A model generated the notes under the pieces. That model worked only from the letters and a program-made list of their open reading frames with translations, made no database searches and was not told where the DNA came from. Positions 17,901 through 62,600 of a stretch of DNA of 64,000 bases are shown piece after piece. Position 1 is the stretch's first letter, and every line of letters begins with the position of its first letter. The stretch comes from the human T2T-CHM13v2.0 reference genome, Homo sapiens, in the NCBI GenBank assembly GCA_009914755.4, contig CP068257.2, positions 8,288,001 through 8,352,000 of the forward strand, given 5' to 3'. The position numbers and the translations under genes are program-made.

Positions 17901-19741
17901 AAGCTCTCCAAATGTCCACTAGCAGATTCTACAAAAAGAGTGTTTCCAAACTGCTCAATCAAAAGAAAGTTTCAACTCTGTGAGATGAATGCTCTACCTT
18001 ACAAAGGAGTTTCTCAGAATTCTTCTGCCTGGTTTTTATGTGAAGATATTTCTTTTTCCACAATAGGCTTCTAAGTGCTCCAAATGTCCACTTTCATATT
18101 CTACAAAAAGAGAGTTTCAAAACTCCTCAATCAAAAGAAAGCTTTACCTCTTTGAGTTGAATGCTCACATCACAAAGAAGTTTCTCAGATTGCTTCTGTC
18201 TAGATTTTATTTGAAGATATTTCCTTTTCTGCCATAGGCCACAAAGTTCTCCAAATGTCCACTTGCAGATTCTACAAAAAGAGTGTTTCCTTACTGCTCA
18301 ATCTAAAGAAAGGTTCAGCATTGTGAAATGAACACACACATCACAAAGAAGTTTCTCCGAATTCTACTGTCTAGTTTTTATGTGAAGATATTTCCTTTTC
18401 CACCATTGGCCACAAAGCGCTCCTGATGTCCATTTGCGGATTCAACCAAAAGAGATATTCAAAACTGCTCAAACAAAAGAAAATTTTATCTCTGTGAGAT
18501 GAATACACCCATCACAAAGAAGTTTCTCAGATTGCTTCTGTCTAGATTTTATGTGAAGATATTTCCCTTTCTACCATAGGCCGCATTGCGCTCCGTATGT
18601 CTACTTGCAGATCCTACAAAAAGAGGGTTTCCGAACTGCTCAATCTAAAGCATGGTTCAACTCTATGAGATGAACGCACACATCACAAAGAAGTTTCTCA
18701 GAATTCTTCTATCTAGTTCTTATGGGAAGATATTTCCTTTTCCACCATAGGCCACCTAGTGCTCCAAATGTCTACTTGCAGATTCTACAAAAAGAGAGTT
18801 TCAAAACTGCTCAATCAAAAAAAAATTTTAACTATGTGACATGAATGCACACATCACAAAGTAGTTTCTCAGATTGCTTCTGTCTGGAATTTATGTGAAC
18901 ATATTACCTTTTCTACAATAGGCCGCAAAGCGCTCCAAATGTCCACTTGCAGATTCTACAAAAAGAGTGATTCCAAACTGCTCAATCAAAAGAAAGGTTC
19001 AAATCTGTGATATGAATGCAGATATCACAAAGAAGTTTCTCAGAATTCTTCTGTATGGTTTTTATGTGAAGATATTACCTTTTCCACCATGGGCCTCAAA
19101 GCACTTCCAATGTACACTTGCAGATTCCACAAAAGGGAGTTTCTAAACTGCTGAATCAAAAGGAAGTTTTAACTGTGTGAGATGAATGCACACATCACAA
19201 AGAAGTTTCTGAGACTTCTTCTGTCTAGGTTTCATGTGAAAATAGTTCCGTTTTTACCATAGGCCACAGAGCGCTTCAAATGTGCACTTGAAGATTCTAC
19301 ATTAACAGTGTTTCCAAACTGCTCCATCAAAAGAGAGGTTCAACTCTGTGAAATGAACGCACACATCACAAAGAAGTATGTCGGAATTCTTCAGTCTAGT
19401 TTTTATGTTGAAGATACTACCTTTTCCACCATAGGCCTCAAAGCACTCCAATGTACACTTGCAGATTCTACAAAAAGAGAGTTTCAAAACTGCTTTATCA
19501 AAAGAAAGGTTTAACTCTGTGATATGAATGCATATATTACAAAGAAGTTTCTCAGATTTCTTCTGTCTAAATTTGATGTGAAGATATTTCCTTTTCTACC
19601 ATTGGCTACAAAGTGATCCAAATGTCCACTTGCAGATTCTACAAAAAGAGTGTTTCCTAACTGCTCAATCAAAAGAAAGGTTGAACTCGGTGAGGTGAAC
19701 GCACACATCCCAACAAAGTTTCTCAGAATTTTTCTGTCTAG

Positions 19742-20019
19742 TTTTTTTTTTTTTAAGAGCAGTTTGGGTTTTATTTCTTTTTTTATGTTCATAGAAGTAT
19801 TTATTTATTTATTTATTATACTTTAAGTTTTAGGGTACATGTGCACAATGTTCAGGTCAGTTACATATGTATACATGTGACATGCTGGTTCGCTGCACCC
19901 ACTAACTCACCATCTAGCATTAGGTATATCTCCCAATGCTATCCCTCCCCCCTCTCCCCACCCCACAACAGTACCCAGAGTGTGATGTTCCCCTTCCTGT
20001 GTCCATGTGTTCTCATTGT
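19742..20019 (-). other. L1 copy 1 3'UTR and poly(A) tail, with (TTTA)n and an extra ~43 bp between the canonical 3' end and the A13 run
   Basis: Reading the minus strand: ...gcacatgtaccctaaaacttaaagtataataaataaataaataaata, then cttctatgaacataaaaaaagaaataaaacccaaactgctctt, then A13. The ORF2 stop lies at about 20020. Confidence 0.8.
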
Positions 20020-23841
<3,822 letters not shown>

Positions 23842-23901
23842 GATGTTAGCTGGTTATTTTGCTCGTTAGTTGATGCAGTTTTTTCCTAGTCTCGAAGGTC
23901 T

Positions 23902-24920
23902 TTACATTTTGGTATGATTTTGCAGCGGGCTGGTACCAATTGTTCCTCTTCATGTTTAGTGCTTCCTTCAGGAGCTCTTTTAGGGCAGGCCTGGTGGTGA
24001 CAAAATCTCTCAGCATTTGCTTGTCTGTAAAGTATTTTATTTCTCCTTCACTTATGAAGTTAATTTGTCTGGATATGAAATTCTGGGTTGAAAATTCTTT
24101 TCTTTAAGAATGTTGAATATTGGTCCCCACTCTCTTCTGGCTTGTAGAGTTTCTGCAGAGGGATCTGCTGTTAGTCTAATGGGCTTTCCTTTGAGGGTAA
24201 CCCGACCTTTCTCTTTCGCTGCCCTTAACATTTTTTCCTTCATTTCAACTTTGGTGAATCTGACAATTATGTGTCTTGGAGTTGCTCATCTCGAGGAGTA
24301 TCTTTGTGGCATTCTCTGTTTTTCCTGAATCTGATTGTTGGCCTGCCTCGCTAGATTGGGGAAGTTCTCCTGGATAATAACCTGCAGAGTGTTTTCCAAC
24401 TTGGTTCTATTCTCCCCGTCACTTTCAGGTACAACAATCAGACGTAGATTTGGTCTTTTCTCATAGTCCCATATTTCCTGGAGGCTTTGCTCGTTTCTTT
24501 TTATTCTTTTTTCTCTAAACTTCCCATCTCGCTTCATTTCATTCACTTCATCTTCCATTGCTGATACCCTTTCTTCCAGTTGATCGCATTGGCTCCTGAG
24601 GCTTCTGCATTCTTCATGTACTTCTCGAGCCTTGGCTTTCAGCTCCATCAGCTCCTTTAAGCACTTCTCTGTATTTGTTATTCTAGTTATACATCCCTCT
24701 AAATTTTTTTCAACGTTTTCAACTTCTTTGCCTTTGGTTTGAGTGTTCTGCAGCTCGGAGTAGTTTGATCATCTGAAGCCTTCTTCTCTCTGCTAGTCAA
24801 AGTCATTCTCCATCCAGCTTTGTTCCATTGCTGATGAGGAACTGCGTTCCTTTGGAGGAGGAGAGGCACTCTACTTTTTAGAGTTTCCAGTTTTTCTGCT
24901 CTGATTTTTCCCCATCTTTG
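23902..24920 (-). pseudogene. L1 ORF1 remnant (RNA-binding chaperone ORF1p), disrupted
   Basis: The minus-strand start ATG sits in ...ccaaaagtagataaaaccacaaagATGggg (reverse complement of 24911-24940). Pieces at 24286-24648 (MELKAKAREVHEECRSLRSQCDQLEERVSAMEDEVNEMK...RIKRNEQSLQEIWDY...) and 24052-24243 (MKEKMLRAAKEKGRVTLKGKPIRLTADPSAETLQARREWGPIFNILKEKNFQPRISYPDKL) are in different frames. Confidence 0.85.
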
Positions 24921-25821
24921 TGGTTTTATCTACTTTTGGTCTTTGATGATGGTGATGTACTGATGGGTTTTTGTTGTGGATGTCCTTTCTGTTTGTTAGT
25001 TTTCCTTCTAACAAACAGAACCCTCAGCTGCACGTCTGTTGGAGTACCTGGCCGTGTGAGGTGTCAGTCTGCCCCTGCTGGGTGGTGCCTCCCAGTTAGG
25101 CTGCTCTGGGTTCAGGGGTCAGGGCCTCACTTGAGGTGGCAGTCTGCCCATTCTCAGATCTCCAGCTGCATGCTGGGAGAACCACTGCTCTCTTGAAAGC
25201 TGTCAGACAGGGACATTTAAGTATGCAGAGGTTACTGCTGTCTTTTTGTTTGTCTGTGTCCTGTCCCCAGAGGCGGAGCCTACAGAGGCAGGCAGGCCTC
25301 CTTAAGTTGTGGTGGGCTCCACCCAGTTCCAGCTTCCTGGCTGCTTTGTTTACCTAAGCAAGCTTGGGCAATGGCGGTGCCCCTTCCCCAGCCTCGCTGT
25401 CTCCTTGTAGTTTGATCTCAGACAGCTGTGCTAGCAATCAGCAAGACTCTATGTGTGTAGGACCCTCTGAGCCAGGTGTGGGATATAATCTCCTCATGTG
25501 CAATTTTTTATGTCCGTGGGAAAAGCACAGTATACGGGTGGGAGTGACCCGATTTTCCAGGTGCTGTCTGTCAACCCTTTCTTTGACTAGGAAAGGGAAC
25601 TCCCTGACCCCTAGTGCTTCCCGAGTGAGGCAATGCCTTGGCCTGCTTCGGCTCTTGCATGGTGTGTGCACCCACTGACCTGCTCCCACTGTCTGGCACT
25701 CACTAGTGAGACGAACCCGGTACCTCAGATGGAAATGCAGGAATCACCCATCTTCTGCGTCGCTCATGCCGGGAGCTGTGGACTGGAGCTATTCCTATTC
25801 GGTCATCTTGGTTCCTCTCCC
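24921..25821 (-). promoter_or_regulatory. L1 5'UTR (internal Pol II promoter region) of copy 1, CpG-decayed
   Basis: The reverse complement begins gggagaggaaccaagatgaccgaataggaatagctccagtccacagctcccggcatgagcgacgcagaagatgggtgattcctgcatttccatctgaggtaccgggttcgtctcactagtgagtgccagacagtgggagcagg. The YY1-box region caagatgGCCg reads caagatgaccg here. There are many CpG-to-TpG/CpA changes. Confidence 0.75.
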
Positions 25822-26700
25822 GGAACACTCTCTTTGTAGAATCTGCAAGTGGACATTTGGAGCGCTTTGAGGCCTATGGTGGATAACAAAATATCTTCAT
25901 ATGATAACTTGACAGAAGCATTCTAAGAAACTTCTTTGTGATGTATGTACTCGTCCCACAGAGTTGAACCTTTCTATTGATTTAGCAGTCTGGAAGCACT
26001 CTTTTTGTAAAATCTGCAAGTGGACATTTTGTGCACTTTTAGGCCTATGGTAAAAAGGAAATATCTTCACATAAAAACCAGACAGAAGCATTTTGACAAC
26101 CTTCTTTGCAATATGTGCATTCGTATCACAGAGTTGAGCCTTAATTTGATTTAGCAGTTTTGAAGCACCCTTTTGATAATACCTGTGATTGGACATTTGG
26201 AGTGCTTTGATGCCTTTGGTGGAAAAGGAAATATCTTCACATAAGAACTAGACAGACGCATTCTGACAAACTTCTTTGTGATGTGTGCATTCATCTCAGA
26301 GAGTTGAACATTTATTTTGATTGAACAGCTTTGAAAACCTCTTTTGTGGAATCTGCAAGTGGACATTGGGAGTGCTTTGAGGCCTATGGTAGAAAAGGAA
26401 ATATCTTCACATAAAAACTAGACAGAAGCATTCTGACAAACATCTTTGTGATGTGTGCATTCATCTCACAGAGTTGAACCTAACTTTTGATTGAGCAGTT
26501 TGGAAACACTCTTTTTGTAGAATCTACAAGTGGACATTTAGAGTGCTTTGAGGCCTATGGTGGATAAAGAAATATCATCACACAAAATATAGACAGAAGC
26601 AATCTTGGAAATTTATTTGTGATGTGTGCATTCATCTCACAGAGTTAAACCTTTCTTTTGATTGAGCAGTTTTGAAACACTCTTTCTGTAGAATCTGCAA
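25822..26700 (+). repeat. Alpha satellite, plus orientation, class Y (about 5 monomers), the 5' flank of L1 copy 1
   Basis: Begins ggaacactctctttgtagaatctgcaagtggacatttggagcgctttgaggcctatggtggataacaaaatatcttcatatgataacttgacagaagc. Monomers carry gtggacatt and [a/t]ctagacagaagc. Unusual variants (ctgtgattggacatttgg, ggtggataa) are shared with the paralogous flank at 52450-53606. Confidence 0.92.
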
Positions 26701-29700
26701 GTGGATATTCGGAGTGCTTTGTGGCCTATGGTGGAAAAGGTAATATCTTCACATAAAAACTACGCAGAAGCATTCTAAGAAAGTTCTTTGTGATGTGTGC
26801 ATTCAACTCTAAGATTTGAACCTATCTTTTGACTGGGCAGTTTTGAAACACTCTTTTTGTAGAATCTGCAAGGGGATATTTAGAGCGATTCGAGGCCTAT
26901 TGTGGAAAAGGAAATATCTTCACATAAAAACTACAGAAAAGCATTCTACGAAAGTTCTTTGTGATGTGTGCATTCAATTCTCAGAGTTGAACCTATCTTT
27001 TGATAGAGCAGTTTTGAAACTCTCTTTTTGTAGAATTTGCAAGTGGATATTTGGATTCCTTTGTGGCCTACGGTGGAAAAGGAAATATCTTAACATAAAA
27101 ACTACACAGAAGCATTCTGAGAAACTACCTTGTGATGTGTGAATTCACATCACAGTGTTTAACATTTCTTTTGATTGTGCAGTTTGGAAACACTCTTTTA
27201 CTAGTATCTGCAAGTGGATATTTCGAGCCCTTGTAGGCCTATTGTGGAAAAGGAAATATCTTCACATAAAAACTACACAGAAGCATTTTGAGAAACTCCT
27301 GTGTGATGTGTGAATTCATCTTACAGACTTGAACCTGTCTTTTGATTGAGCAGTTTTGAAACACTCTTTTTATAGACTCTGCAAGTGGATATTTGCATCA
27401 CTTTGAGGCCTATGGTGGAAAAGGAAATATCTTCCCAAAAAACCTACACAGAAGCATTCTCAGAAACTTCTTTGTGATGTGTGCATTCATCTTACAGAGT
27501 TGAAACTTTCTTTTGATTGAGCAGTTTAGAAACACTCTTTCATAGAATCTGCAAGTGGATACTTGGAGCGTTTTGAGGCCCATGGTGGAAAAGGAAATAT
27601 CTTCCCATAAAAACTACAAAGAAGCATTCTGAGAAACTTCTTTATGATATGTGCATTGAACGCAAAGAGTTGAACCTATCTTCTGATACAGCAATTTTTA
27701 AAATCACTTTTTATAGAATCTGGAAGTGGATATTTGGAGCGTTTTGTATCCTATGGTGGAAAAGGAAATATCTTTCCATAAATGCTACACAGAAGTATTC
27801 GGAGTAACTACTTTGTGATGTGTGCATTCAACTCATAGAGCTGAACCTATCTTTTGATAGAGCAGTTTTGAAAATCTCTTTTTGTAGAATCAGCAAGTGC
27901 ATATTTGGAAACCTTTGCAGGCTATGGTGGAAAACTAAATATCTTCTTATAAAAACTTCACAGAAGCATTCTGAGAAACTTTTTTGTGATGTATGCATTC
28001 ATCTCATGGAGTTGAACCTCTCTTTCAATTGAGAAGTTTGGAAACACTCTTTTTGTGGAATCTGCAAATGGATATATGGAGGGCTTGAGGCCTATTGTGG
28101 AAAAGGAAATATCTTCCCATGAAAACTACACAGAGGCATTCTGAGAAACTTCCTTGTGAGGTGTACATTCAACTCACCGATTTGAACCTTTCTTTGGATT
28201 TAGCAGTTTGGAAACACTCTTTTTGTAGAATCTGCAAGTAGTTATTTTGATCGATTTGGAGCCTATGTGGGAAAGGAAATATCTTCACATAAAAACTACA
28301 CAGAAATATTCTGAGAAATTTCTTTGTGATGTGTGCATTCACCTCACAGAGTTGAGCCTATCCTTTGATAAAGTAGTTTTGAAACTCTCTTTTTGTAGGA
28401 TCTGCAAGTGGATATTTGGAGCCTTTTGCATCCTACGTAGGAAAAGCAAATATCTTCACATAAAAACTACACAGAATCATTCTGAGAAACTTCTTTGTGA
28501 TGTGTGCATTCAACTCACAGAGATGAACTTTTCTTTTGATAGAGCAGTTTTCAAACTCTCTCTTTGTAGAATCTGCAAGTGGATATTTGGAGCCCTTTGC
28601 AGCCTAGGTAGGAAAAGGAAATATTTTCACATCAAAACTACATAGAAGCATTCTGAAAAACTTCTTTGTGATGTGTGCATTCAGCTCACAGAGTTGAACT
28701 TATCTTTTCACAGAGCAGGTTTAGAACTCTCCTTTTGTATAATCTGGAAGTAGATATTTGGAGGGCTTTGAGGCCTGTGGTGGAAAAGGAAATATCTTCA
28801 GATAAAAACTACACATAAGCATTCTGAGAAAGTTCTCTGTTATGTGTGCATACGTCTCACAGAGTTGAAGATATCTTTTACATATAGCAGTTTTGAAAAT
28901 TTCTTTTTGTAGAATCTGCAAGTGGATATTTGGAGTCCTTTGCAGCCTACGGTGGAAAACGAAATATCTTCACATAAAAACTACACAGAAGCCTTCTGAG
29001 AAACTTCTTTGTGATGTGTCCACTCATCTCACAGAGTTGAACCTTTCATTTGATAGAGCGGTTTTGAAACACTTTTTTTGCAGAATCTACAAGTGGATAT
29101 TGGGAACGCATTGAGGCTTATGGTGGAAAAGGAACTATCTTCACATAAAAACTACACAGAAGCATTCTGAGAAACTTCTTTGTGATGTGTGCATTCATCT
29201 CACAGAGATGAACCTATCTTTTCATAGAGCAGTTTTGAAACTCTCTTTCTGTAGAATCTGCGACTGGATATTTGGAGCCCTTAGCGGCCTATGGTGGAAA
29301 AGGAATTATCTTCACATAAAAACTACACAGTATCATTCTGAGAAACTTGTTTGTGATGTGTGCATTCATCTCACAGATTTGAACCCTTCCATCTTTTGAG
29401 CAGTTTGTACACCCTCTTTTTGTAAAATCTACAAGTGGATATATGGAGCGCTTTGAGGCCTATTGTGGAAAAGGAAATACCTTCACATAAAAACTACACA
29501 GAAGCATTCTGAGAAACTTCTTTTTGACGTGTGCATTCATCTCACAGAGTTGAACATTTCATGTGATTGAGCAGCTTTGAAACACTCTTTTTGTAAAATC
29601 TGCAAGTGGGTATTTGCAGCACTTTGAGGCCTATTTTGGAAAAGGAAATATCTTCCCATAAAAACTACATAGAAACATTCTCAGAAACTTCTTTGTGTTA

Positions 29701-32700
29701 TGTGCATGTATGTAGAGAGTTGAACCTTTCATTTGATTTAGCAGTTTGCAAACACTCTTTTAGTAGAATCTGCAAGTAGATATTTGAAGCCCTTGGGGCC
29801 TATTATGGAAAAGGAAATATCTTCACATAAAAACTATGCAAAAGCGTTCTGAGAAACTTCATTGTGATGTGTGCATTCACTTAACAGAGTTGAACCTTTC
29901 TTTGAATTAAGCAGTTTTGAAACACTCTTTCTGTAGAATCTGCAAGTGGATATTCAGAGTGCTTTGTGGCCTACGGTGGAAAAGGTAATATCTTCACATA
30001 AAAACTATGCAAAGCATTCTAAGAAAGTTCTTTGTGATGTGTGCATTCAACTCTCAGAGTTGAACATATTTTTTGATAGAGCAGTTTTGAAACTCTCTTT
30101 TTGTAGAATTTGAAGGGGATATTTGGATTCCTTTGTGGCCTATTGTGGAAAAGGAAATATCTTAACATAAAAAATATACAGAAGCATTCTGAGAAACTTC
30201 TTTGTGATGTGTGCATTCATCTCACAGAGTTGAACCTATCTTTTGATAAAGCAGTTTTGAAACTCTCTTTTTGTAGAATCTGCAAATGGATATTTGGAGC
30301 CCTTCGCAGCCTGTGGTGGAAAAGGAAATATCTTAACATAAAAAGTACACAGAAGCATTCTGAGAAACTTCTTTGTGATGTGTGCATTCATATCATAGTG
30401 TTGAACATTTCATTTGTTTGTGCAGTTTGGAAACATTCTTTTACTAGTATCTGCAAGTGGATATTTCGAGCTATTTTAGGCCTATTGTGGAAAAGGAAAC
30501 ATCTTCACATATAAACTACACAGAAGCATTTTGAGAAACTCCTGTGTGAAGTGTGAATTCACCTCATGGACTTGAACCTTTCTTTGAATTAAGCAGTTTT
30601 GAAACACTCTTTCTGTAGAATCTGCAAGTGGATATTTGGAGCACTTTGAGGCCAATGGTGGAAAAGGAAATATCTTAACATAAAGACTACACAGAAGAAT
30701 TCTGAGAAGTTCTTTGTGATGTTTGCATTCAACACACAGAGTTGAACATATCTTTTGATAGAGCAGTTTTGAAACTCTCTTTTTGTGGAATCTGCAAGTC
30801 GATATTTGGAGCACTTTGTGGCCCATTGTGGAAAAGGAAATATCTTCACATAAAAACTACATAGAAGCATTCTGAGAAACTAATTTGTGATGTGTGCACT
30901 TATCTCACATAGTTGAACCTTTCATTTGATACAGCGGTTTTGAAACACTCTTTTTGCAGAATCTGCAAGTGGATATTGGGAGCGCATTGAGGCCTATGGT
31001 GGAAAAGGAACTATCTTCACATGAAAACTACACAGAAGCATTCTGAGAAACTTCTTCGTGATTTGTGCGTTCTTCTCACAGAAATGAACCTATCTTTTGA
31101 TAGAGCAGTTTTGAAACTCTCTTTTTGTAGAATCTGCGAGTGGATATTTGGAGCCCTTAGAGGCTTATGGTGGAAAAGGAAAAGGAATTATCTTCACATA
31201 AAAACTACACAGTATCATTCTGAGAAACTTGTTTGTGATGTGTGCATTCGTCTCACAGAGTGGAAAATTTCATTTGAATGAGCAGTTTTGAAAAACTCTT
31301 TTTGTAGAATCTGCAAGTGGATATTTGGAGGGCTTAAAGGCCTAATGTTGAAAAGGAAATATCTTCACATTAAATCTACAGAGAAGCATTCAGAGAATCT
31401 TCTTTCTGTTGTGTGCTTTGATCTCACAGTGTTGAACCTGTCTTTTATTCAGAAGTTTGGAAACAGTCTTTTTGCAGAATCTATAAGTGTATATTTGGAG
31501 CACTTTGAGGGCTATGGTGGAGATTGAAATGCCTTCAAATAAAAACTGCACAATAGCCTTCTCAGAAAATTCTTTGTGATGTGTGCATTCAACTCACAGA
31601 GTTAAACCTATCTTCTGTTAGAGCAGTTTTGAAACTCTATTTTTTTGGAGTTTGCAAGTGGATATTTGGAGCTCTTTGAGGCCTATGGTGGAAAAGGAAA
31701 TATATTCACATAAAAACTACTCAGAAGCATTCTCAGAAAGTGCTTTGTGATGTGTGTATTCATCTCACAGAGTTGAACCTTTCTTTTGATTGAGCAATTT
31801 TGAAACACTGTTTTTGTAGAATCTGCAAGTGGGTATTTTGAGCGCTTTGAGGCCTATAGTGGAAAAGGAAATGTCTTCACAAAAAATCTACGCAGAAGAA
31901 TTCTCAGAAACTTTTTTGTGATATGTACATTCATCTCACAGTGTTGAATCTTTCTTTTGATTGGGCAGTTTGGAAACACACTTTTTGTAGAATCTGTAAG
32001 TGGATATTTAGAGTGCTTTGAGGCCTATGTTGGAAAAGGAAATATCTTCCCCTAAAAACGACACAGAAGCATTCCGAGAATCTTCTTATTGATGTGTGAA
32101 TTGAACTCACAGAGTTGAACCCATCTTTAGATAGAGCAGTTTTGAAACTCTCTTTTTGTAGAATCCGCAAGTGAATATTTGGAGCCCTTTGTGGGCGATG
32201 GTGGAAAAGGAAATATCTTCACATAAAAATTACACAGAAGCATTCTGAGAAATTTTTTTGTGATGTGTGCATTCAAATCACAGTGTTGATCCTATCTTTT
32301 GATACAGCAGTTTTGAAACTCTCTTTTTGTAGAATCTTCAAGTGGATATTTGAAGCCCTTTGTGGGCTAAGGTGGAAAAAATATCTTCACATAAACACTA
32401 CATAGAAGCATTCTGACGAACTTTTTTGTGTTGTTTGCATTCAACTCACAGTGTTGAACTAGTCTCTTGATAGAGCAGTTTAGAAACACATTTTTTGTAG
32501 AATCTGCAAGTGGATGTTTGGAGTGCTTTGAGTCCTGTTGTGGAAAAGGCAATATCTTCACATAAAAACTACACAGTAGCATTCTGAGAAACTTCTTTGT
32601 AATGTGTGCATTCAACTGACAGAGTTGCAGCTGTCTTTTGGTGGAGCAGTTTTGAAACTCCCTTTTTGTAGGATCTGCAAGTGGATATCTGGATCCCTTT

Positions 32701-50099: not shown

Positions 50100-50780
50100 T
50101 TTTGTGATGTGCGCATTACCTCACAGAGTTGAACCTTTCTTTTGATTGAGCAGTTTGGAAACACTCTTTTTGTAGACTCTGCACGTAGATATTTGGAGCA
50201 CCTTGTGGCCCATGTTAGAAAAGGAAATATCCTCACATAAAATCTAGACAGAAGCAATCTGAGAAAGTTCTTTGTGATGTGTGCATTCATAACACAGAGG
50301 TAAACCTTTCTTTTGATTGAACAGTTTTGAAACTCTCTTTTTGTAGAATCTGCAAGTGGACATTTACAGTGCTTTGAGGCCTACTGTGGAAAAGGAAATA
50401 TCTTCACATAAATACTAGACAGAACAATTCTGAGAAACTTCTTTGTGATGTGTGCATTACCTCACAGAGTTGCACTTTTCTTTTGATTGAGCAGTTTGGA
50501 AACACTCTATTTGTAGAATCTGCAAGTGGACATTTGGAGCACCTTGCGGCCATGTTAGAAAGGGAAGTATCTTCACATAAAATCTAGACAGAAGCAATCT
50601 GAGAAAGTTCTTTGTGATGTGTGCATTCATAACACAGAGGTAAACCTTTCTTTTGATTGAACAGTTTTGAAACTCTCTTTTTGTAGAATCTGCAAGTGGA
50701 CATTTGAAGAGCTTTGAGGACTATGGTGGAAAAGGAAATATCTTCACATAAAAACTAGACAGAAAAATTCTGAGAAACTT
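50100..50780 (+). repeat. Tandem pair of ~340-bp Y-class dimers at about 95% identity
   Basis: ...cttgtggcccatgttagaaaaggaaatatcctcacataaaatctagacagaagcaatctgagaaagttctttgtgatgtgtgcattcataacacagaggtaaacctttcttttgattgaacagttttgaaactctctttttgtagaatctgcaagtggacattt... is repeated from about 50440. Confidence 0.85.
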
Positions 50781-50934
50781 CTTTGTTATGTGTACATTCA
50801 TCTCACCGAGTTGAATCTTTCTTTTGATACAGCAGTTTGGAAACACTCTTTTTATAGATTCTGCTAGCAGACATTTGAGCACTTTGCAGCATATGGTAGA
50901 AAAGGTAATATCTTCACATAAAATCTAGACAGAA

Positions 50935-51615
50935 GCAATCTGAGAAACTTCTTTGTGATGTGTTCCTTCAACTCAAGGAGTTAAACATTTCTTTTGGTTG
51001 AGGAGTTTTGAAACTCTCTTTTTGTCAAATCTGCAAGTGAACATTTGGAGCGCTTTGGGGCACATGGTGGAAAAGGAAATATCTTCACATAAAAAATAGG
51101 CAGAAGAATTCTGAGAAACTTCTTTGTGATGTGTGCGTTCATTTCACAGAGTTGAATCTTTCCTTTGAGCAGTTTGGAAACACTTTTTATAGAATCTACT
51201 TTTGGACATTTGGAGCGCCTTGCGGCCTATGGTAGAAAAGGAAATATCTTCACATAAAATCTAGACAAAAGCAATCTGAGAAACTTCTTTGTGATGTGTT
51301 CCTTCAACTCAAGGAGTTAAACATTTCTTTTGGTTGAGGAGTTTTGAAACTCTCTTTTTGTCGAATCTGCAAGTGAACATTTGGAGCGCTTTGGGGCACA
51401 TGGTGGAAAAGGAAATATCTTCACATAAAAAATAGGCAGAAGAATTCTGAGAAACTTCTTTGTGATGTGTGCGTTCATTTCACAGAGTTGAATCTTTCCT
51501 TTGAGCAGGTGGAAACACTTTTTATAGAATCTACTTTTGGACATTTGGAGCGCCTTGCAGCCTATGGTAGAAAAGGAAATATCTTCACATAAAATCTAGA
51601 CAAAAGCAATCTGAG
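50935..51615 (+). repeat. Tandem pair of ~340-bp Y-class dimers at about 98% identity, ending about 30 bp before the 51643/51644 strand switch
   Basis: caatctgagaaacttctttgtgatgtgttccttcaactcaaggagttaaacatttcttttggttgaggagttttgaaactctctttttgtc.aatctgcaagtgaacatttggagcgctttggggcacatggtggaaaaggaaatatcttcacataaaaaataggcagaagaattctgag appears at 50935 and again at 51275. Confidence 0.88.
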
Positions 51616-51642
51616 AAACTTCTTTGTGATGTGTGCATTCAT

Positions 51643-51644
51643 CC
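51643..51644. other. Abrupt mid-monomer strand switch of the alpha satellite (inversion or duplication breakpoint)
   Basis: Plus-orientation monomer text ...aatctgagaaacttctttgtgatgtgtgcattcatc is joined directly to minus-orientation text catagattttatgtgaatatatttctttttctagcatagg. A normal monomer would continue ...cattcatctcacagagttgaac. Confidence 0.9.
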
Positions 51645-53606
51645 ATAGATTTTATGTGAATATATTTCTTTTTCTAGCATAGGCCACAAGCACTCCAAAT
51701 GTCCACTTGCAGATTCTACAAAAAGATTTTTTCCAAACAGCTCAATCAAAGAAAGATCCAACTCTGTGAGATGAATGCACACATCACAAAGAAGTTTCTC
51801 AGATGGCTTCTGTCCAGATTTTATGTCCAGATATTTCCAGTTCTACCACAGGCTTCAAATCACTCCAAATGTCCACTTGTAGATTCTACAAAAAGAGTGC
51901 TTTCAAACTGCATAATCAAAGGAAAGCTTCAGCTCTGTGAGATGAATGCATACCTCACAAAGAAGTTTTACAAAATTCTTCTGTCTGGTTTTTATGTGAA
52001 GATGCTTCCTCCTCCGCCATAGGCCTCAAGCACTACAAATGTCCACTTGCAGATTCTACAAAAAGAGAGCTTCAAAACTGCTCAATCAAAAGAAATGTTT
52101 AACTCTGTGAGATGAATGCACGCATCACAAAGAAGTTTCTCAGATTTCTTCTGTCTATATTTTATGTGAAGATAATTCCTTTTTGACCATAGGCTGCAAA
52201 GCTCTCCAAATGTCCACTTTCAGATTCTGAAAAAAGAGTGTTTCCAAACTGTTCAATCAAAAGAAATGTTCAACTCTGTGAGATGAATACACACATCACA
52301 AATAAGTTTTTCAGAATTCTTCTGTCTAGTTTTTATGTGAAGATACTTTCTTTTCCACCGTAGGCCTCAAAGCACTACAAGTGTCCACTTGCAGATTCTA
52401 CAAAAAGACTGTTCCAAAACTGCTCAAACTAAAGAAAGGTTTAACTCTGTGAGATGAATGCACACATCACAAAGAAGTTTCTCAGATTGCTTCTTGTAGA
52501 TTACATGTGAAGTTAATTCCTTTTCACCATAGGCCACAAAGCACTCAAAAAGTCCACTTGCAGATAATACAAGAGAGTTTCAAAACTGCTCAATCAAAAG
52601 AAAGGTTTAACTCTGTGAGATGAATGCACACATCACAAAGAAATTTCCAAGATTGCTTCTGTCTATATTTTATGTGAAGATATTTCCTTTTCTATCATAG
52701 GCCTCAAAGTGCTCCAAATGTCCACTTGCAGATTCTACAAAAAGAGGGTTTCCACACTGCTAAATTAAAAGTAAGGTTCAACTCTGTGAGATGAGTGCAC
52801 ACATTACAAAGAAGTTTCTCAGAATGCTTCTTTCTCTTTATTATACGAAGATATTTCGTTATCCACCACAGGCCTCAAAGACCTCCAAATGTCCACTTGC
52901 AGATTCTACAAAGAGAGTGTTTCAAAACTGCTCAATCAAAAGTAACGTTCAACTCTGTGAGATGAATGCACACATCACAAAGGTGTTTGTCAGAATGTGT
53001 CTGTCTAGATTTTATGTGAAGATATTTCCTTTTCTACCATAAGACTCAAAGCACTAGAAATGTCCACTTGCAGACTCCAGTAAAAGAGGTTTTCAAACCT
53101 GCTCAATCAAAATAAATGTTCAACTCTCTGAGATGAATGCACACATCACAAAGAAGTTTGTCAGAATGCTTCTGTGTAGTTCTTATGTGACGATATTTCC
53201 TTTTCCACCAAAGGCGTCAAAGCACTCCAAATGTCCAATCACAGATTTTACCAAAAGGGGGCTTCAAAACTGCTAAATCAAAAGTAAGGTTCAACTCTGT
53301 AGGATGAATGCACATATCACAAAGAAGGTTGTCAGAATGCTTCTGTCTAGTGTTTATGCGAAGATATTTCCTTTTTACCATAGGCCTAAAAGTGCGCAAA
53401 ATATCCACTTGCAGATTTTACAAAAAGAGTTCTTCCAAACTGCTAAATCAAAAGAAAGGTTCAACTCTGTGGGATGAATGCACACATCACAAAGAAGTTT
53501 CTTAGAATGCTTCTGTCTAGTTATTATATGAATATATTTTGTTATCCACCATAGGCCTCAAAGCTCTCCAAATGTCCACTTGCAGATTCTACAAAGAGAG
53601 TGTTCT
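51644..53606 (-). repeat. Alpha satellite, minus orientation, class Y (about 11.5 monomers), the 5' flank of L1 copy 2. Its proximal ~1.1 kb is paralogous to 25822-26750 in inverted orientation
   Basis: Starts in mid-monomer with catagattttatgtgaatatatttctttttctagcataggccacaagcactccaaatgtccacttgcag. It ends ...ccaaatgtccacttgcagattctacaaagagagtgttctg directly abutting gggagaggaaccaagatgg of the L1. Confidence 0.92.
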
Positions 53607-54513
53607 GGGAGAGGAACCAAGATGGCTGAATAGGAACAGCTCCGGACTACAGCACCCTGTGTGAGCAACGCAGAAGACGGGTGATTTCTGCATTTCCATC
53701 TGAGGTAACGGGTTCATCTCACTAGTGAGTGCCAGACAGTGGGAGCAGGTCAGTGGGTGCGCGCACCGTGCAGGAGCCAAAGCAGGGTGAGGCATTGCCT
53801 CACTCGGGAAGGACTAGGGGTCAGGGAGTTCCCTTTCCTAGTCAAAGAAATGGGTGACATACGGCACCGAGAATTCAGGTCACTCCCACCCGAATACTGC
53901 GCTTTTCCCATGGGCTTAAAAAATGCCACACGAAGAGATTATATCCCGCACCTGGCTTGGAGGGTCCTACGCCTACGGAGTCTCACTGATTGCTAGCACA
54001 GCTGTCTGAGATCAAACTGCAAGGAGGCAGTGAGGCTAGGGGAGGGGCGCCCGCCATTGCCCAGGCTTGCTAAGGTAAACAAAGCAGCTGGGAAGCTCGA
54101 AATGGGTGGAGCCCACCTCAGCTCAAGGAGGCCTGCCTGCCTCTGTAGGCTCCACCTCTGGGGGCAGGACACAGACAAACAAAAAGTCAGCAGTAACCTC
54201 TGCAGACGTAAATGTCCCTGTCTGACAGCTTTGAAGAGAGCAGTGGTTCTCCCAGCACGCAGCTGGAGATCTAAGCATGGGCAGACTGTCTCCTCAACTG
54301 GGGCCCTGACCCCTGACCCCTGAGCAGCCTAACTGGGAGGCACCCACCCAGCAGGGGCAGACTGACACCTCACATGGCCAGGTACTTCAACAGACGTGCA
54401 GCTGAGGGTCCTGTTTGTTAGAAGGAAAACTAACAAACAGAAAGGACATCCACAGCAAAAACCCATCAGTACCTCACCATCATCAAAGACCAAAAGTAGA
54501 TAAAACCACAAAG
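53607..54513 (+). promoter_or_regulatory. L1 5'UTR (internal promoter) of copy 2
   Basis: Canonical L1 5'UTR sequence. The YY1-box region reads caagatggctg (CpG lost). The ORF1 ATG is at 54514 (aagATGgggaaaaaacagagcagaaaaactggaaactc). Confidence 0.75.
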
Positions 54514-55530
54514 ATGGGGAAAAAACAGAGCAGAAAAACTGGAAACTCTAAAAAGCAGAGCGCCTCTCCTCCTCCAAAGGAATGCAGTTCCTCACCAGCA
54601 ATGGAACAAAGCTGGATGGAGAATGACTTTGACTAGCTGAGAGAAGAAGGCTTCAGATGATTAAATTACTCTGAGCTACAGGAGGACATTCAAACCAAAG
54701 ACAAAGAAGTTGAAAACGTTGAAAAAAATTTAGAAGGTTGTATAACTAGAATAACCAACACAGAGAAGTGCTTAAAGGAGCTGATGGAGCTGAAAGCCAA
54801 GGCTCGAGAAGTACATGAAGAATGCAGAAGGCTTAGGAGCTGATGTGATCAACTGGAAGAAAGGGTATCAGCAATGGAAGATGAAGTGGATGAAATGAAG
54901 CAAGAAAGGAAATTTAGAGAAAAAAGAATAAAAAGAAATGAACAAAGCCTCCAAGAAATATGGGACTATGTGAAAAGACCAAATCTATGTCTGATTGGTG
55001 TACCTGAAAGGGATGGGGAGAATGGAACCAAGTTGGAAAACACTCTGCAGGATATTATCCAGGAGAACTTCCCCAATCTAGCAAGGCAGGCCAACATTCA
55101 GATTCAGAAAATACAGAGAATGCCACAAAGATACTCCTCGAGAAGAGCAACTCCAAGACACATAATTGTCAGATTCACCAAAGTTGAAATGAAGGAAAAA
55201 ATGTTAAGGGCAGCCAAAGAGAAAGGTCGGGTTACCCTCAAAGGGAAGCCCATTAGACTAAGAGCAGATCCCTCAGCAGAAACTCAATAAGCCAGAAGAG
55301 AGTGGGGGCCAATATTCAACATTCTTAAAGAAAAGAATTTTCAACCCAGAATTTCATATCCAGACAAACTAAGCTTCATAAGCAAAGGAAAAATAAAATA
55401 CTTTACAGACAAGCAAATGCTGAGAGATTTTGTCACCACCAGGCCTGCCCTAAGAGAGCTCCTGAAGGAAGCACTAAATATGGAGAGGAACAACCGATAC
55501 CAGCCACGGCAAAATCATGCCAAATTGTAA
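54514..55530 (+). pseudogene. L1 ORF1 remnant, disrupted
   Basis: Reads MGKKQSRKTGNSKKQSASPPPKECSSSPAMEQSWMENDFD, then a TAG stop at 54637. The downstream piece 54874-55290 (MEDEVDEMKQERKFREKRIKRNEQSLQEIWDYVKRPNL...KEKGRVTLKGKPIRLRADPSAETQ*) is in another frame. The terminal ...caaattgTAA is at 55528-55530. Confidence 0.85.
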
Positions 55531-55592
55531 AGACCATCATGACTAGGAAGAACCTGCACCAACTAACAAGCAAAATAACCAGCTAACATCAT

Positions 55593-59410
<3,818 letters not shown>

Positions 59411-59642
59411 AGCAATGAGAACACATGGACACAGGAAGGGGAACATCACACTCTGGGGACGGATGTGGGGTAGGGGGAGGGGGGAGGGATAGCATTAGGA
59501 GATATACCTAATGCTAAATGACGAGTCAATGGGCTCAGCACACCAACATGGCACATGTACACATATGTAACAAACCTGCACAATGTGCACATGTACCCTA
59601 AAACTTAAAGTATCATAATAATACAATAAAATAAATTAAAAC

Positions 59643-62600
59643 AAAAACTATACAGCAGTACTCTGAGAAACTTCCTTGCAATGTGTACACTGAACTCTCG
59701 CAGTTGAACATATCTTTGGATTGAACGGGTTTGAAAATATCTTTTTGTAGAACCTGGAAGTGGATATATGGAGCCCTTTGCGGCCTACAGTGTAAAAGGA
59801 AATATCTTCACAAAAAAACTACACAGAAGCATTCTGAGAAACTTCTTTGTGAAGGGTGCATTCATCTCACAGACTTCAACCTTTCTTTTGATTGACCAGT
59901 TTAGAAACTTTTTTTGTAGAATGTGCAAGTGGATATTTGGAACGCTTTGGGGACTATTGTGGAAAAGGAAATATCTTTACATAAAAACTACACAGAAGCA
60001 TTCTGAGAAGTTTCTTTGTGATGTGTGCATTCATCTTACAAAGTTGAAACTTTCTTTTGTTTGAGCAGTTTGGAGACACTCTTTTTGTAGAATCTGCCAG
60101 TGGATATTTGGAGCCGTTTGAGGCTTATGGTGGAAAAGGAAATATCTTCAGATAAACACTACACAGAATCATTCTGAAACACTGCTTTGTGAAGTGTGAA
60201 TCCATCTCACAGAGTTGAACCTTACTTTTGATTAAGCAGTTTTGAAACGCTCTTTTTGTGGAATGTGAAAGTGGATATTTGGAGTGCTTTGAGGTCTATG
60301 GTGGAAAAACTACAAAGAAGGATTCTGAGAAACTTCTTTGTGATGTGTGCATTCAACTCACAGATTTGAACATATCTGTGGATTGAGCAGCTTTGAAACT
60401 GCCTTTTTGTTCAATCTGCAATGGGATATTTTGAGCCCATTGCGGCCTATGTTGGAAAAGGAAATATCTTCAGATAAAAACTACACAGAAGCATTCTGAG
60501 AAACTTCTTTGTGATGTGTACATTCATCTCACAGAGTAGAACCTTTCTTTTGATTGAGCAGTTATGAAATACACTTTTTGTAGAATGTTCAAGTAGATAT
60601 TTGGAGGGCTTTGAGGCCTATTGTGGAAAAGTTAATATCTTCAAATAAAAACTACTCAGAATCATTCTGAGAAACTACTTTGTGATCTGCGAATTCATCT
60701 GAAAGACTTCAAAATTTATTTTGTTTGGACAGTATGGAAACTCTTTTTATAGAATCTGCAAGTGAATATTTGGAGAGATTTGAGGCCTATGGCAGAAATG
60801 GAAATATCTTTACATGAAAACTACACAAAAGCATTCTGTGAAACTTCTTTATGATGTGTGCATTCAACTCACAGAGCTAAACCTAACTTTTGATTGACCA
60901 GTTTTGAAACTCTCTTTTGTAGAATCTGCAAGGGGATATTTGGAGTGCTTTGAGGCCTACTGTGGAAAAGGGAATATCCTCACATAAAAACTACACAGAA
61001 GCATTATGAGAAGCTTCTTTGTGATGTGTGCATTCAACTCACAGAGTTGAATATTTCTTTTGATTGTGCAGCTTGGAAACACTGTTTTTGTAGAATCTGC
61101 AAATGGATATTTGGAGCACTATGTGGTCTATTGTGGAAAAGAAAATATCTTCACATAAAAACTTCACCGAAGCATTCTAAGAGACTTCTTTGTTATGTGT
61201 GTATTCAACTCACAGAGTTGAACCTATCTTTTGATACAGCAGTTTTGAAACTCTCTTTTTATAGAATCTGAAAATGGATATTTGGAGCCCTTTGCAGCTT
61301 ATGGTGTAAAAGGAAATATCCTCACATAAAAACTATGCAGAAGCATCCTGAGAAACTACTTTGTGATGTGCTCATTCATCTCACAGAGTTGAACTTTTCT
61401 TTTGATTGTGCAGTTTGGAAACACTCTTTTTGTAGAATCTGCAGGTGGATATTTGGAGGGTTTTGAGCCCTATGGTGGTAAAGGAAATGTCATCACATGA
61501 AAAATAAACAGAGGCATTCTGAGAAACTTCTTTGTGACTTGTGGATCCACCTCCCAGAGTTGAACCTATCGTTTGATTAAGAAGTTTTGAAACTCTATTT
61601 TGTAGAACCTGCAAGTGGATATTTGGAGCCATTTGCGGCCTATGGTGTAAAAGGAAATATCTTCACTTTAAAACTACACAGAAACATTCTGAGACACTTC
61701 TTTGTGACGTGTGCATTTATCTCACAGAGTTGAACCTTTCTTTTGATTGAGCAGTTTGGAAACACTCTTTTTGTAGAATCTTCAAGTGGATATTTGGAGT
61801 GCTTTAAGGCCTATTGTGAAAAAGGAAATATCTTCACATAAAAACTACACAGAAACATTCTGAGTAACTTCTTTGTGATGTGTGCATTCATCTGACAGAG
61901 TTGAACCTCTCTTTAGTTTGAAGAGTTTGGACTCTCTTTTTGTAGAATCTGCAATTTAATATTTGGAGCACTTTGAGGCCTACGGTGGAAAAGGAAATAT
62001 CTTCACATAAAAACTACACAAAACTATTATGAGAAACTTCTTTGTGGTGTGTGCATTCAACTCACAGGGTTGAACTTATCTTTTGGTTGACCAGTTTTGA
62101 AACTCTCTTTTTGTAGAATCTGCAAGTGGATATTAGGAAACCCTTGTGGCCTATGGTGGAAAAGGTAATATCTTCACATAAAAAGTACACAGAAGCATTC
62201 TGAGAAACTCTTTGTAATGTGAGCATTCATCTCACAGATTTGCACCTCTGTTTTGATTGAGCAGTTTCAATCTGCAAGTGTATATTTGGAGCGTTTTGTG
62301 GCTATGGTAGAAAAGGAAATATCTTCTCATAAAAAGTACACAGAAGCATTCTGAGAAACTTCTTTGTGATGTATTCATTCTACTCACAGATTTGAACCTA
62401 TTTTTTGATAGAGCGGTTTTGAAACTGTCTTTTTCAATAATCCGCAAGTGGATATTGGTAGCCCTATGCGGCCTAAAATGGAAAAGGAAATATCTTCACA
62501 AAAAAAACTACACAGAAGAATTTTGAGAAACTTCTTTGTGATGTGTGCATTCCTCTCAGAGTGTTGAACGTTTCTTTTGATTGCGCAGTTTGGAAACACT

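What the first reader, a model, noticed from the sequence alone, without database searches (positions are those of the whole stretch)
19700..59700. Each L1 sits exactly at an alpha-satellite orientation switch, and neither has a target-site duplication
In the frame of each L1, the upstream satellite runs antisense to the L1 and the downstream satellite runs sense. Copy 1 has alpha(-) on its left and alpha(+) on its right while the L1 itself is minus. Copy 2 has alpha(-) on its left and alpha(+) on its right while the L1 is plus. A classical target-primed insertion would leave the same array orientation on both sides and a 7-20-bp duplication. Here the 5' side abuts ...ttgtagaatctgcaagtgg monomer text, and the 3' side abuts (a)n ctaNacag text of the opposite strand. 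The L1 therefore marks a strand-switch breakpoint. Possible mechanisms include endonuclease-independent capture of the L1 at a double-strand break, an inversion with one breakpoint inside or next to the L1, or a deletion following recombination. Both 3' junctions fall at the same monomer position (ctgt.tag ttttt / aaaaa cta.acag). That could reflect a preferred L1 endonuclease site in the monomer or shared ancestry.
Basis: partly seen in the sequence, partly recalled or inferred. Interest (0 to 1): 0.55.

Follow-up and report, generated by a model that had tools for sequence, protein, structure and literature searches.

The report
L1 insertions flipped satellite DNA
Two dead full-length L1 retrotransposons in a monomeric alpha-satellite array do sit at orientation switches without target-site duplications, but they are two copies of a single junction event that matches a known outcome, an L1 insertion that flips about 2 kb of neighbouring DNA as it integrates.

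Summary
L1 copy 1 (19742-25821, minus strand) and copy 2 (53607-59647, plus strand) each have alpha(-) on the left and alpha(+) on the right. Neither has a TSD; the longest flanking direct repeat is 5 bp, which is chance level. Both 3' flanks start at monomer phase 161.

The two L1s are not independent cases:
- They are head-to-head paralogs, 93% identical.
- They share an identical 5' junction (phase 75) and about 1 kb of 5'-flank alpha.
- Their 3' flanks are unrelated. Each 3' junction is poly(A) at TTTTT/ATGTG, the site holding 226 of 326 TTTTA motifs in these monomers. Integration was therefore endonuclease-dependent.

The 1.96-kb alpha(-) block beside copy 2 begins there at phase 159, the other half of that endonuclease site. 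The structure matches "L1 insertion with inversion of reciprocal-end DNA", described in L1-expressing clones and cancers.

My inferred history:
1. A founder insertion flipped the 1.96-kb block.
2. A read-in transcript carrying about 1 kb of alpha made the second copy.
3. Recombination between the two inverted copies flipped the spacer.

One long-range switch, from A(-) to B(+), remains unexplained. This is a germline instance of a known mechanism and is moderately interesting.

The parts
1..19741 (-). Alpha-satellite array 'A', monomeric, minus orientation. Monomer type T2 from 1 to about 9 kb and type T1 from about 9 to 19.7 kb. It ends ...CTGTCTAG at phase 161 and is the 3' flank of L1 copy 1.
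   Evidence: nhmmer map; phase; monomer typing; no higher-order periodicity except a weak dimer signal at 17.4-19.7 kb.
19742..19754 (-). T13 on the plus strand, which is the A13 tail of copy 1. It abuts CTAG of the alpha monomer, so this is poly(A) on the endonuclease site TTTTT/ATGTG. Up to 5 of the T may belong to the monomer.
   Evidence: Sequence read; motif census.
19755..19799 (-). 45 nt of non-L1 sequence between the L1 3' end and A13. In the L1 frame it reads TACTTCTATGAACATAAAAAAAGAAATAAAACCCAAACTGCTCTT. It contains AATAAA 16 nt before the A13 and an 11-mer of alpha(-), CCAAACTGCTC. It is a candidate 3' transduction or filler and is absent from copy 2.
   Evidence: It is unique in the window except for the alpha 11-mer.
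19800..25821 (-). L1 copy 1 body. It is full length, the 5' end reads GGGAGAGGAACCAAGATG..., and the ORFs are broken.
   Evidence: Self-BLAST and global alignment to copy 2; ORFs; Pfam RVT_1, Tnp_22_trimer and Transposase_22.
25822..26800 (+). 'd1': about 0.97 kb of 5'-flank alpha co-duplicated with the L1. It is about 92% identical to 52460-53606, starts at phase 75, and is T1-like or ambiguous in type. The outer boundary is fuzzy, about 26770-26810.
   Evidence: Sliding identity and shifted alignment; divergence equal to that of the L1; typing.
26801..51649 (+). Spacer array 'S', alpha(+). It is type T2 from 26.8 to about 46 kb and type T1 (dimeric) from about 46 to 51.65 kb. It continues in phase from d1, with an abrupt type change at about 26.8 kb, and ends at phase 44.
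51650..53606 (-). 1,957-bp alpha(-) block a' of type T1. Its left end TTTTATGTGAA is at phase 159, the other half of the endonuclease site. Its right end, at phase 75, is joined to the 5' end of L1 copy 2. The part 52460-53606 ('d2') is the paralog of d1 and carries one extra 171-bp monomer at about 52687-52857. I interpret the block as reciprocal-end target DNA inverted at integration.
53607..59647 (+). L1 copy 2, full length with broken ORFs and a simple A-rich tail ...AATAAATTAAAACAAAAA.
   Evidence: Pfam Transposase_22, Tnp_22_trimer and Exo_endo_phos.
59648..64000 (+). Alpha array 'B', plus orientation, type T2. It starts CTATACAG at phase 161 and is the 3' flank of copy 2. It is not paralogous to the 3' flank of copy 1.

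Best explanation
All three strand switches in the window trace to L1 integration events followed by recombination between the resulting copies. I propose three steps.

1. Founder insertion. A full-length L1 integrated by endonuclease-dependent target-primed reverse transcription (TPRT) at the one strong endonuclease site of the alpha monomer, CTAGTTTTT/ATGTG (phases 156-160), inside a T1-type array.
- The break was not resealed classically.
- The 1.96 kb of target DNA on the reciprocal side of the nick was inverted.
- Its far end (phase 75) was joined to the complete L1 5' end.
- Its nick-proximal end (phase 159) was joined back to the array, with loss of 30 bp (phases 45-74, modulo 171).
- The result is no TSD, antisense alpha upstream of the L1, and an L1-less switch 1.96 kb away.

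2. Second copy. A transcript started about 1 kb upstream, inside the inverted block, and read through the L1 to its own poly(A) signal. It was retrotransposed (a 5' transduction) into the same endonuclease site of a T2-type monomer about 25 kb away, in the opposite orientation. Its alpha-containing 5' end was joined in phase to alpha of the same polarity.

3. Spacer flip. The two head-to-head 7-kb repeats recombined (NAHR) and flipped the intervening spacer, giving the present order.

Shown:
- Paralogy of the two L1s and the shared 5' junction.
- Independent 3' junctions at the endonuclease site.
- The phases of all junctions.
- The monomer-type map.

Inferred:
- The inversion happened at integration.
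- The second copy was made through an RNA intermediate.
- The spacer flipped.
For: Paralogy
- One long inverted repeat, 19799-27782 against 59636-51651, is the only strong self-match in the window.
- Sliding identity shows that real paralogy covers the L1 (7.0% divergence, 5.8% at non-CpG sites) plus about 1 kb of 5' flank (7.5% and 6.2%). In-register identity then falls to the array background of about 0.80.
- Both 5' junctions read GAGAGTGTTCY|GGGAGAGGAACC at phase 75.

Independent 3' ends
- The 3' flanks share no diagonal at any monomer offset.
- The tails differ.
- Both 3' ends are poly(A) followed by phase 161.
- 226 of 326 TTTTA motifs lie at that one site and strand.

Local inversion
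- The alpha(-) block starts with TTTTATGTG at phase 159. This is exactly complementary to the retained 3' half, which starts at phase 161. A random breakpoint would land within 2 bp of this position about 3% of the time.
- The block's other end (phase 75) and the array end it abuts (phase 44) are 30 bp apart.
- The block is the same monomer type (T1) as the adjacent S-end and as A-end.
- The architecture matches the published class. In bioRxiv 10.1101/2024.12.14.628481 an L1 insertion carries a 917-bp inversion of reciprocal-end DNA, one inversion breakpoint lies next to the primary RT breakpoint, and there are small deletions.

Direction of copying and the flip
- In copy 2 the duplicated flank sits in native T1 context.
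- In copy 1 it abuts T2 monomers, and the log-likelihood ratio jumps abruptly from about -3 to -27 at 26.77 kb, exactly where paralogy ends.
- Flipping the spacer restores a single T1 domain flanked by T2.
- A-end and S-end are each other's best matches at 84-85%, and both are dimeric.
- The 45-nt extra tail plus A13 then belongs to the founder, and the simple tail belongs to the copy.
Against: - No pre-insertion allele or outgroup is available, so the timing 'at integration' is inferred from junction phases only.
- The 30-bp gap is known only modulo 171.
- The 5' boundary of the duplicated flank is fuzzy (about 26770-26810) and lies in phase with the neighbouring alpha. No TSD or discrete 5' junction of the retrocopy can be shown, and a 5' transduction normally carries TSDs around the whole unit.
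- Whichever spacer isomer is ancestral, the second copy still separates arrays of opposite polarity: A(-) against S(+) as assembled, or RC(S)(-) against B(+) if flipped. One long-range strand switch is therefore not explained inside the window. It needs either a large L1-associated inversion with its other breakpoint outside the window or a pre-existing switch.
- The T1/T2 difference is small (about 2-3% identity), although classification is 89-96% correct under leave-one-out.
- The origin of the 45-nt tail segment is unproven.
Confidence: 0.5

Rival explanations
1. Same events but no spacer flip. In this version the assembled order is the historical one. The founder is copy 2, inserted into a (+) array made of S and B, with its 1.96-kb upstream block inverted. 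Copy 1 is the 5'-transducing retrocopy and landed at, or created, the A(-)/S(+) switch.
For: - It needs one event fewer.
- The junction phases fit equally well: block end at 159 against B at 161, and S end at 44 against block end at 75.
- S and B flank copy 2 in one orientation.
Against: - The T1-to-T2 boundary would have to coincide exactly with the endonuclease site. S-end and the block are T1, B is T2.
- The T1 domain would be split into two places.
- The derived copy would carry 45 nt plus A13 that are absent from the supposed source's 3' flank.
Confidence: 0.2
2. The second copy arose by a DNA-level inverted segmental duplication of L1 plus about 1 kb of flank, through replication template switching or break repair, and not through RNA. 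One breakpoint fell in the A/T run at the L1 tail by microhomology.
For: - The inner boundary is in phase and seamless in both copies, as expected for homology-guided DNA events in a tandem array.
- Alpha A5/T5 runs offer microhomology with a poly(A) tail.
Against: - The duplication stops exactly at the L1 3' end.
- The two tails differ in structure.
- Each tail abuts the canonical endonuclease site in an unrelated monomer. That is the signature of two TPRT events.
Confidence: 0.12
3. Two classical L1 insertions in opposite orientation, followed by recombination between them. This swaps their inner flanks and creates the apparent strand switches and the loss of TSDs.
For: The two L1s are head to head at 93% identity. 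That geometry does invert the spacer on recombination.
Against: - Recombination swaps flanks; it does not make them identical. Here both 5' flanks are the same sequence joined at the same base.
- The swapped flank pairs show no TSD either, only 5 bp.
- This model leaves the L1-less switch at 51649|51650 unexplained.
Confidence: 0.03
4. Endonuclease-independent capture of L1 cDNA at pre-existing double-strand breaks or at a pre-existing strand switch.
For: - There is no TSD.
- Divergent alpha satellite is known to be rich in inversions and L1s.
Against: - Endonuclease-independent insertions typically lack poly(A) at a TTTT/A site and are often 3'-truncated (established knowledge, from memory).
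- Here both copies are full length and have A-tails on the dominant TTTTA site.
- The reciprocal half of that same site is retained at 51650.
Confidence: 0.05

Closest known systems
L1 insertion with inversion of genomic DNA on the reciprocal end of the ORF2p-induced break. Described in L1-expressing RPE-1 clones and cancer genomes, bioRxiv 10.1101/2024.12.14.628481 (read).
   Same: - Poly(A) junction at an endonuclease site.
- A sub-10-kb block of flanking DNA inverted between the array and the L1 5' end.
- One inversion breakpoint at the primary RT breakpoint.
- A small deletion at the other breakpoint.
- No conventional TSD.
   Different: - This case is a fixed germline event, millions of years old, inside a tandem satellite.
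- The L1 is full length.
- The inverted block is 1.96 kb, against 917 bp in the experimental example.
- Microhomology at the inversion junction cannot be scored because both sides are A/T runs.
- The structure was subsequently copied and rearranged.
L1 5' transduction, meaning flanking-sequence co-mobilisation from an upstream promoter. Symer et al. 2002 Cell, recalled from memory and not read here.
   Same: Upstream flank plus full-length L1 are copied as one unit that ends at the L1 poly(A) and sits at a new endonuclease site.
   Different: - No TSD around the unit can be shown.
- The 5' end merges in phase with target alpha.
- The transduced sequence is satellite antisense to the L1.
Inversion of a spacer by non-allelic homologous recombination between inverted repeats, as for inverted segmental duplications at pericentromeric inversions (bioRxiv 10.64898/2026.07.22.740206).
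   Same: 7-kb inverted repeats flank a spacer of about 25 kb, and the monomer-type map is simplest if the spacer has flipped.
   Different: The repeats here are L1-plus-satellite retrocopies, and the flip is inferred from one haplotype only.
Twin priming, the L1 5' inversion described by Ostertag and Kazazian 2001 (from memory).
   Same: An inversion is generated during TPRT resolution at a single target site.
   Different: In twin priming the inverted segment is L1 cDNA. Here the L1 is colinear and complete, and the inverted segment is target DNA.

Membership tests
LINE-1 (primate L1) element | ORF1p (trimerisation and RBD-like domains) and ORF2p (APE-type endonuclease and reverse transcriptase) in one orientation | tested here: met
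   Pfam Transposase_22, Tnp_22_trimer, Exo_endo_phos and RVT_1 on ORF fragments of both copies. The ORFs are fragmented.
LINE-1 (primate L1) element | Full-length 5' UTR start and A-rich 3' tail | tested here: met
   Both copies start GGGAGAGGAACCAAGATGG. This matches the L1PA/L1HS 5' end as I recall it from memory and was not checked against a library. The tails are A13 and AAAACAAAAA.
Monomeric (non-HOR) alpha satellite | 171-bp monomers about 80% alike with no higher-order period | tested here: met
   302 monomers. Lag-k identity is flat at 0.79-0.81, apart from weak dimers at 17.4-19.7 kb and 49.3-51.6 kb.
Classical endonuclease-dependent TPRT insertion | Poly(A) at a 5'-TTTT/A-3' site | tested here: met
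   Both 3' junctions lie at CTAGTTTTT/ATGTG, phases 156-161.
Classical endonuclease-dependent TPRT insertion | 7-20-bp target-site duplication and co-oriented flanks | tested here: not met
   The longest flank repeat is 5 bp, equal to the null mode. The immediate flanks have opposite polarity.
L1 insertion with reciprocal-end genomic inversion | An inverted block of local target DNA lies between the array and the L1 5' end, and one of its breakpoints coincides with the primary RT breakpoint | tested here: met
   Block 51650-53606 is antisense to both S and B. Its outer end is at phase 159 and the 3' flank starts at phase 161. The block is of the local T1 type.
L1 insertion with reciprocal-end genomic inversion | Inversion and insertion arose in one event, shown by an empty or pre-insertion allele | not testable with these tools
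   No primate genome collection is available. The genome collection on offer holds only bacterial and archaeal genomes.
L1 5' transduction | The offspring copy carries the source's upstream flank contiguous with a full-length L1 and ends at poly(A) | tested here: met
   About 0.97-1.14 kb of flank is co-duplicated at the same divergence as the L1. Paralogy ends at the L1 tail.
L1 5' transduction | TSDs bracket the whole transduced unit | tested here: inconclusive
   The 5' boundary is only localised to about 26770-26810 and is in phase with the adjacent alpha. No sense-strand copy of the 3' target is seen there.
L1 3' transduction (45-nt segment of copy 1) | A non-L1 segment between the L1 tail and a second poly(A), with a poly(A) signal, that matches the progenitor's 3' flank | tested here: inconclusive
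   The segment is followed by A13 and has AATAAA 16 nt upstream. No progenitor flank is available, and the segment does not match the 3' flank of copy 2.
NAHR inversion between inverted repeats | Inverted repeats bracket the segment, and both isomers exist or the ancestral order can be shown | tested here: inconclusive
   The repeats are present. The ancestral order is inferred only from the monomer-type map and tail logic.

The most novel reading that the evidence does not exclude
L1 integration may be a general, phase-locked generator of strand switches in monomeric alpha satellite. Each monomer offers one dominant ORF2p endonuclease site, so unresolved TPRT breaks would produce local or long-range inversions whose breakpoints sit at phases 155-161. 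Retrocopies that carry antisense satellite at their 5' end can only anneal to the array in inverted register, which would force further inversions. If so, a sizeable share of the many inversions catalogued in divergent alpha satellite would be L1 footprints rather than stochastic by-products of array expansion.
Probability: 0.25. Interest if true: 0.65.

Novelty: new member of a known kind. Interest (0 to 1): 0.42.

Why it matters
Divergent and monomeric alpha satellite is known to be full of both inversions and L1s. About 90% of alpha-satellite strand switches lie in monomeric regions. The papers I read do not state a causal link between the two.

In this window all three strand switches in 64 kb are tied to L1 integration chemistry. 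One of them is an L1-less switch that still carries the endonuclease half-site. That makes this a fixed germline counterpart of rearrangements so far documented in L1-expressing cell clones and in tumours.

It also suggests a simple genome-wide test on telomere-to-telomere assemblies: are alpha strand-switch breakpoints enriched at monomer phases 155-161 and within a few kb of L1 5' ends?

Tried and rejected
1. I first took the 8.0-kb BLAST HSP at face value, as L1 plus 1.96 kb of shared flank, and built a model in which the duplicated unit ended at the 51650 switch. Sliding identity showed that the HSP was over-extended through in-phase background alpha similarity. Real paralogy stops about 1 kb from the L1.

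2. Fold-back or palindrome models. These included A as a mirror copy of S or B, the 51650-52480 segment as an inverted copy of S-end, and a sister-chromatid fusion giving two head-to-head L1s. I rejected them because no inverted match above 84-85% exists outside the L1 unit, and the 3' flanks are of different monomer types.

3. Treating 51650-59647 as a simple insertion with TSD. The only shared string, CTGAGAAACTTC, is conserved monomer text 25 bp from the junction.

4. I tried using the dimer parity of T1 monomers to prove contiguity of A-end and the inverted block. I abandoned this because later dimer duplications and a monomer indel make parity unreliable.

5. A paralogous patch at 26907-27120 against about 29981-30190 (92-95%) was examined as a possible marker of the retrocopy's 5' junction. 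It is too short and patchy to be informative.

6. I tried aligning the 45-nt tail segment to the alpha consensus. Only an 11-mer matches.

7. I could not assign the L1 subfamily because no L1 consensus library is available offline.

8. Four literature calls failed on term syntax (searches returned errors).

Full report
**Layout**

GC skew changes sign at about 20 kb, and there are two A/T-skewed 6-kb islands.

I mapped the window with nhmmer, using a 171-bp alpha-satellite consensus written from memory. It gave 307 hits in four blocks. Reading the junctions base by base refines these to:

| Segment | Coordinates | Strand |
|---|---|---|
| alpha 'A' | 5-19741 | - |
| L1 copy 1 | 19742-25821 | - |
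| alpha (d1 plus spacer 'S') | 25822-51649 | + |
| alpha block a' | 51650-53606 | - |
| L1 copy 2 | 53607-59647 | + |
| alpha 'B' | 59648-63997 | + |

The array is monomeric. Identity at lags 1-12 is flat at 0.79-0.81, apart from weak dimers at 17.4-19.7 kb and 49.3-51.6 kb.

The two islands are L1s. Their ORF fragments hit Transposase_22, Tnp_22_trimer, Exo_endo_phos and RVT_1. Both copies have broken reading frames.

**Checking the observation**

Each L1 has alpha(-) on its left and alpha(+) on its right. In each L1's own frame that is antisense alpha upstream and sense alpha downstream.
- The quoted junction strings are present.
- The longest direct repeat between 40-bp flanks is 5 bp for each copy, and also 5 bp for the swapped flank pairs. 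This equals the mode of a null built from random monomers at the same phases. There is no TSD.
- Both 3' flanks begin at consensus phase 161 (CTAGACAG and CTATACAG), directly after the A-run.

Because of it, the alpha(-) beside copy 2 is only 1,957 bp long.

**The two L1s are one junction event seen twice**

Self-BLAST finds a single strong repeat, 19799-27782 against 59636-51651, inverted, at 90.75%.

A global alignment with sliding identity shows that this HSP is over-extended.
- The L1 bodies are 93.0% identical (5.8% divergence outside CpG).
- The first 0.75 kb of 5' flank is 92.5% identical (6.2% outside CpG).
- After allowing for one extra 171-bp monomer in copy 2, similarity continues to about 26.8 kb in copy 1 and about 52.46 kb in copy 2.
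- It then drops to the in-register background of about 0.80.

Both 5' junctions read GAGAGTGTTCY|GGGAGAGGAACC at phase 75. L1 plus about 1 kb of upstream alpha were therefore copied together.

In contrast, the 3' flanks share no diagonal at any monomer offset. The tails also differ:
- Copy 2 has a simple A-rich tail.
- Copy 1 has the L1 end, then 45 nt of non-L1 sequence containing AATAAA 16 nt before a pure A13.

**Why the same 3' position**

In 302 monomers, 226 of 326 TTTTA motifs lie at one place: the alpha(-) strand at phases 155-160, CTAGTTTTT/ATGTG. Two independent endonuclease-dependent insertions would be expected to land at this phase, with the L1 sense to the alpha downstream. It argues against endonuclease-independent capture.

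**The L1-less switch**

At 51649|51650 the (+) array stops at phase 44. The (-) block starts with TTTTATGTGAA, which is phase 159. That is the other half of the very endonuclease site whose 3' half (phase 161 onward) follows the L1 poly(A). A random break would fall within 2 bp of this position about 3% of the time.

The block's other end, at phase 75, is joined to the intact L1 5' end. Phases 45-74 (30 bp, modulo 171) are missing between the block and the array it now abuts.

By BLAST and by a naive-Bayes monomer typing, the block is the same type (T1) as the adjacent end of S and as the end of A. The classifier is 96% and 89% correct under leave-one-out. It gives the same picture when trained on S alone and applied to the other regions.

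[quoted passage not shown] There, a 917-bp example has one inversion breakpoint next to the primary RT breakpoint, small deletions occur, and the structure is attributed to resection and self-annealing of the reciprocal end (bioRxiv 10.1101/2024.12.14.628481).

**Which copy is the source**

In copy 2 the duplicated flank continues into T1 monomers. In copy 1 it abuts T2 monomers, with an abrupt jump in the log-likelihood ratio from about -3 to -27 at 26.77 kb. That is where paralogy ends. The flank is therefore native beside copy 2's block and foreign beside S.

The second copy ends exactly at the L1 tail, on an endonuclease site, in an unrelated monomer. I therefore infer an RNA intermediate: a transcript initiated about 1 kb upstream, inside the inverted block (a 5' transduction). 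A DNA-level duplication is not excluded.

**Spacer flip**

The type map as assembled is:

T2(-) T1(-) | L1 | T2(+) T1(+) | T1(-) block | L1 | T2(+)

Inverting the segment between the two head-to-head repeats gives T2-T1-T2 with a single 18-kb T1 domain.
- In that order A-end, the block and S-end are neighbours. A-end and S-end are each other's best matches in the window, at 84-85%, and both are dimeric.
- In that order the founder sits wholly in T1 and carries the 45-nt tag plus A13, while the retrocopy sits in T2 and has the simple tail. This removes the conflict of a derived copy carrying sequence that its source lacks.

I therefore infer a later recombination flip. This rests on one haplotype and on small type differences.

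**What remains unexplained**

Whichever isomer is ancestral, the left end of the window is (-) and the right end is (+). The retrocopy therefore separates arrays of opposite polarity, and its alpha 5' end is joined in phase to alpha of like polarity.

One plausible cause is that cDNA ending in antisense satellite can anneal to the array only in inverted register, which would give a large L1-bridged inversion with its reciprocal junction outside the window. Intrachromosomal inversions between L1-induced breaks are also documented. A pre-existing switch removed by a target deletion is equally possible. Neither can be tested here.

The 45-nt segment contains an alpha(-) 11-mer just before the A13. 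Its origin is also open.

**Context and verdict**

Divergent alpha satellite is known to accumulate inversions and L1s. Most alpha strand switches lie in monomeric regions. Neither source links the two mechanistically.

The finding is real. Its interpretation needs correcting on three points:
- There is one founding junction, not two.
- Integration was endonuclease-dependent.
- At the founder the switch is a local 1.96-kb inversion.

The mechanism belongs to a class already described experimentally. This is a germline, satellite-embedded member of that class, with an added history of 5' transduction and probable recombination. From the 5.8-7% divergence between the copies, and using substitution rates from memory, the duplication is very roughly 15-30 million years old.

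Noticed in passing
window 1-9000 vs 9000-19741; 26800-46000 vs 46000-51649; 59648-64000: Two monomer types differ by about 2-3% in mean identity and form domains. T2 covers 1-9 kb, 26.8-46 kb and 59.6-64 kb. T1 covers 9-19.7 kb, 46-51.65 kb and 51.65-53.6 kb. As assembled, A and S both run T2 then T1 from left to right on opposite strands. The T2/T1 boundary in S coincides with irregular monomers at 46362-46675.
   Followed up: partly
window 50937-51270 vs 51273-51605: A very recent tandem duplication of one alpha dimer, 98-99% identical at lag 2. It lies right next to the 51649|51650 switch and is far younger than the L1 events. Further dimer copies at 50087-50766 are 92-96% identical.
   Followed up: no
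window ~52687-52857: Copy 2's duplicated 5' flank carries one extra 171-bp monomer relative to copy 1. Equivalently, copy 1 lost one. This shows monomer-scale turnover after the duplication.
   Followed up: partly
window 19755-19799 (minus strand): A 45-nt non-L1 segment lies between the L1 3' end and a pure A13. It carries AATAAA 16 nt upstream of the A-run and ends in CCAAACTGCTCTT, whose first 11 nt (CCAAACTGCTC) are an alpha(-) 11-mer lying within the phases 45-74 that are missing at the far breakpoint of the inverted block. It could be a 3' transduction from an alpha-embedded progenitor or filler DNA.
   Followed up: partly
window 26907-27120 vs ~29981-30190: A short patch of 92-95% identity between two places 3.07 kb apart in the spacer array, embedded in sequence at about 80% identity. 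It could be a local duplication or a gene-conversion tract.
   Followed up: partly
window 51608-51726: nhmmer reports a weak (+) alpha hit (20.7 bits) running across the strand switch. The start of the (-) block (ATATTTCTTTTTCTAGCATAG) resembles (+) phases 48-68 (AACCTTTCTTTTGATAGAGCAG). This internal inverted similarity within the monomer might favour self-annealing of a resected end.
   Followed up: no
window 53607-54500 vs 25821-24930: The 5' UTR portion of the two L1s is more divergent (9.6%) than the rest (6.3%), with 26 of 86 differences in CpG context. This is consistent with long-term methylation decay rather than a different history.
   Followed up: no
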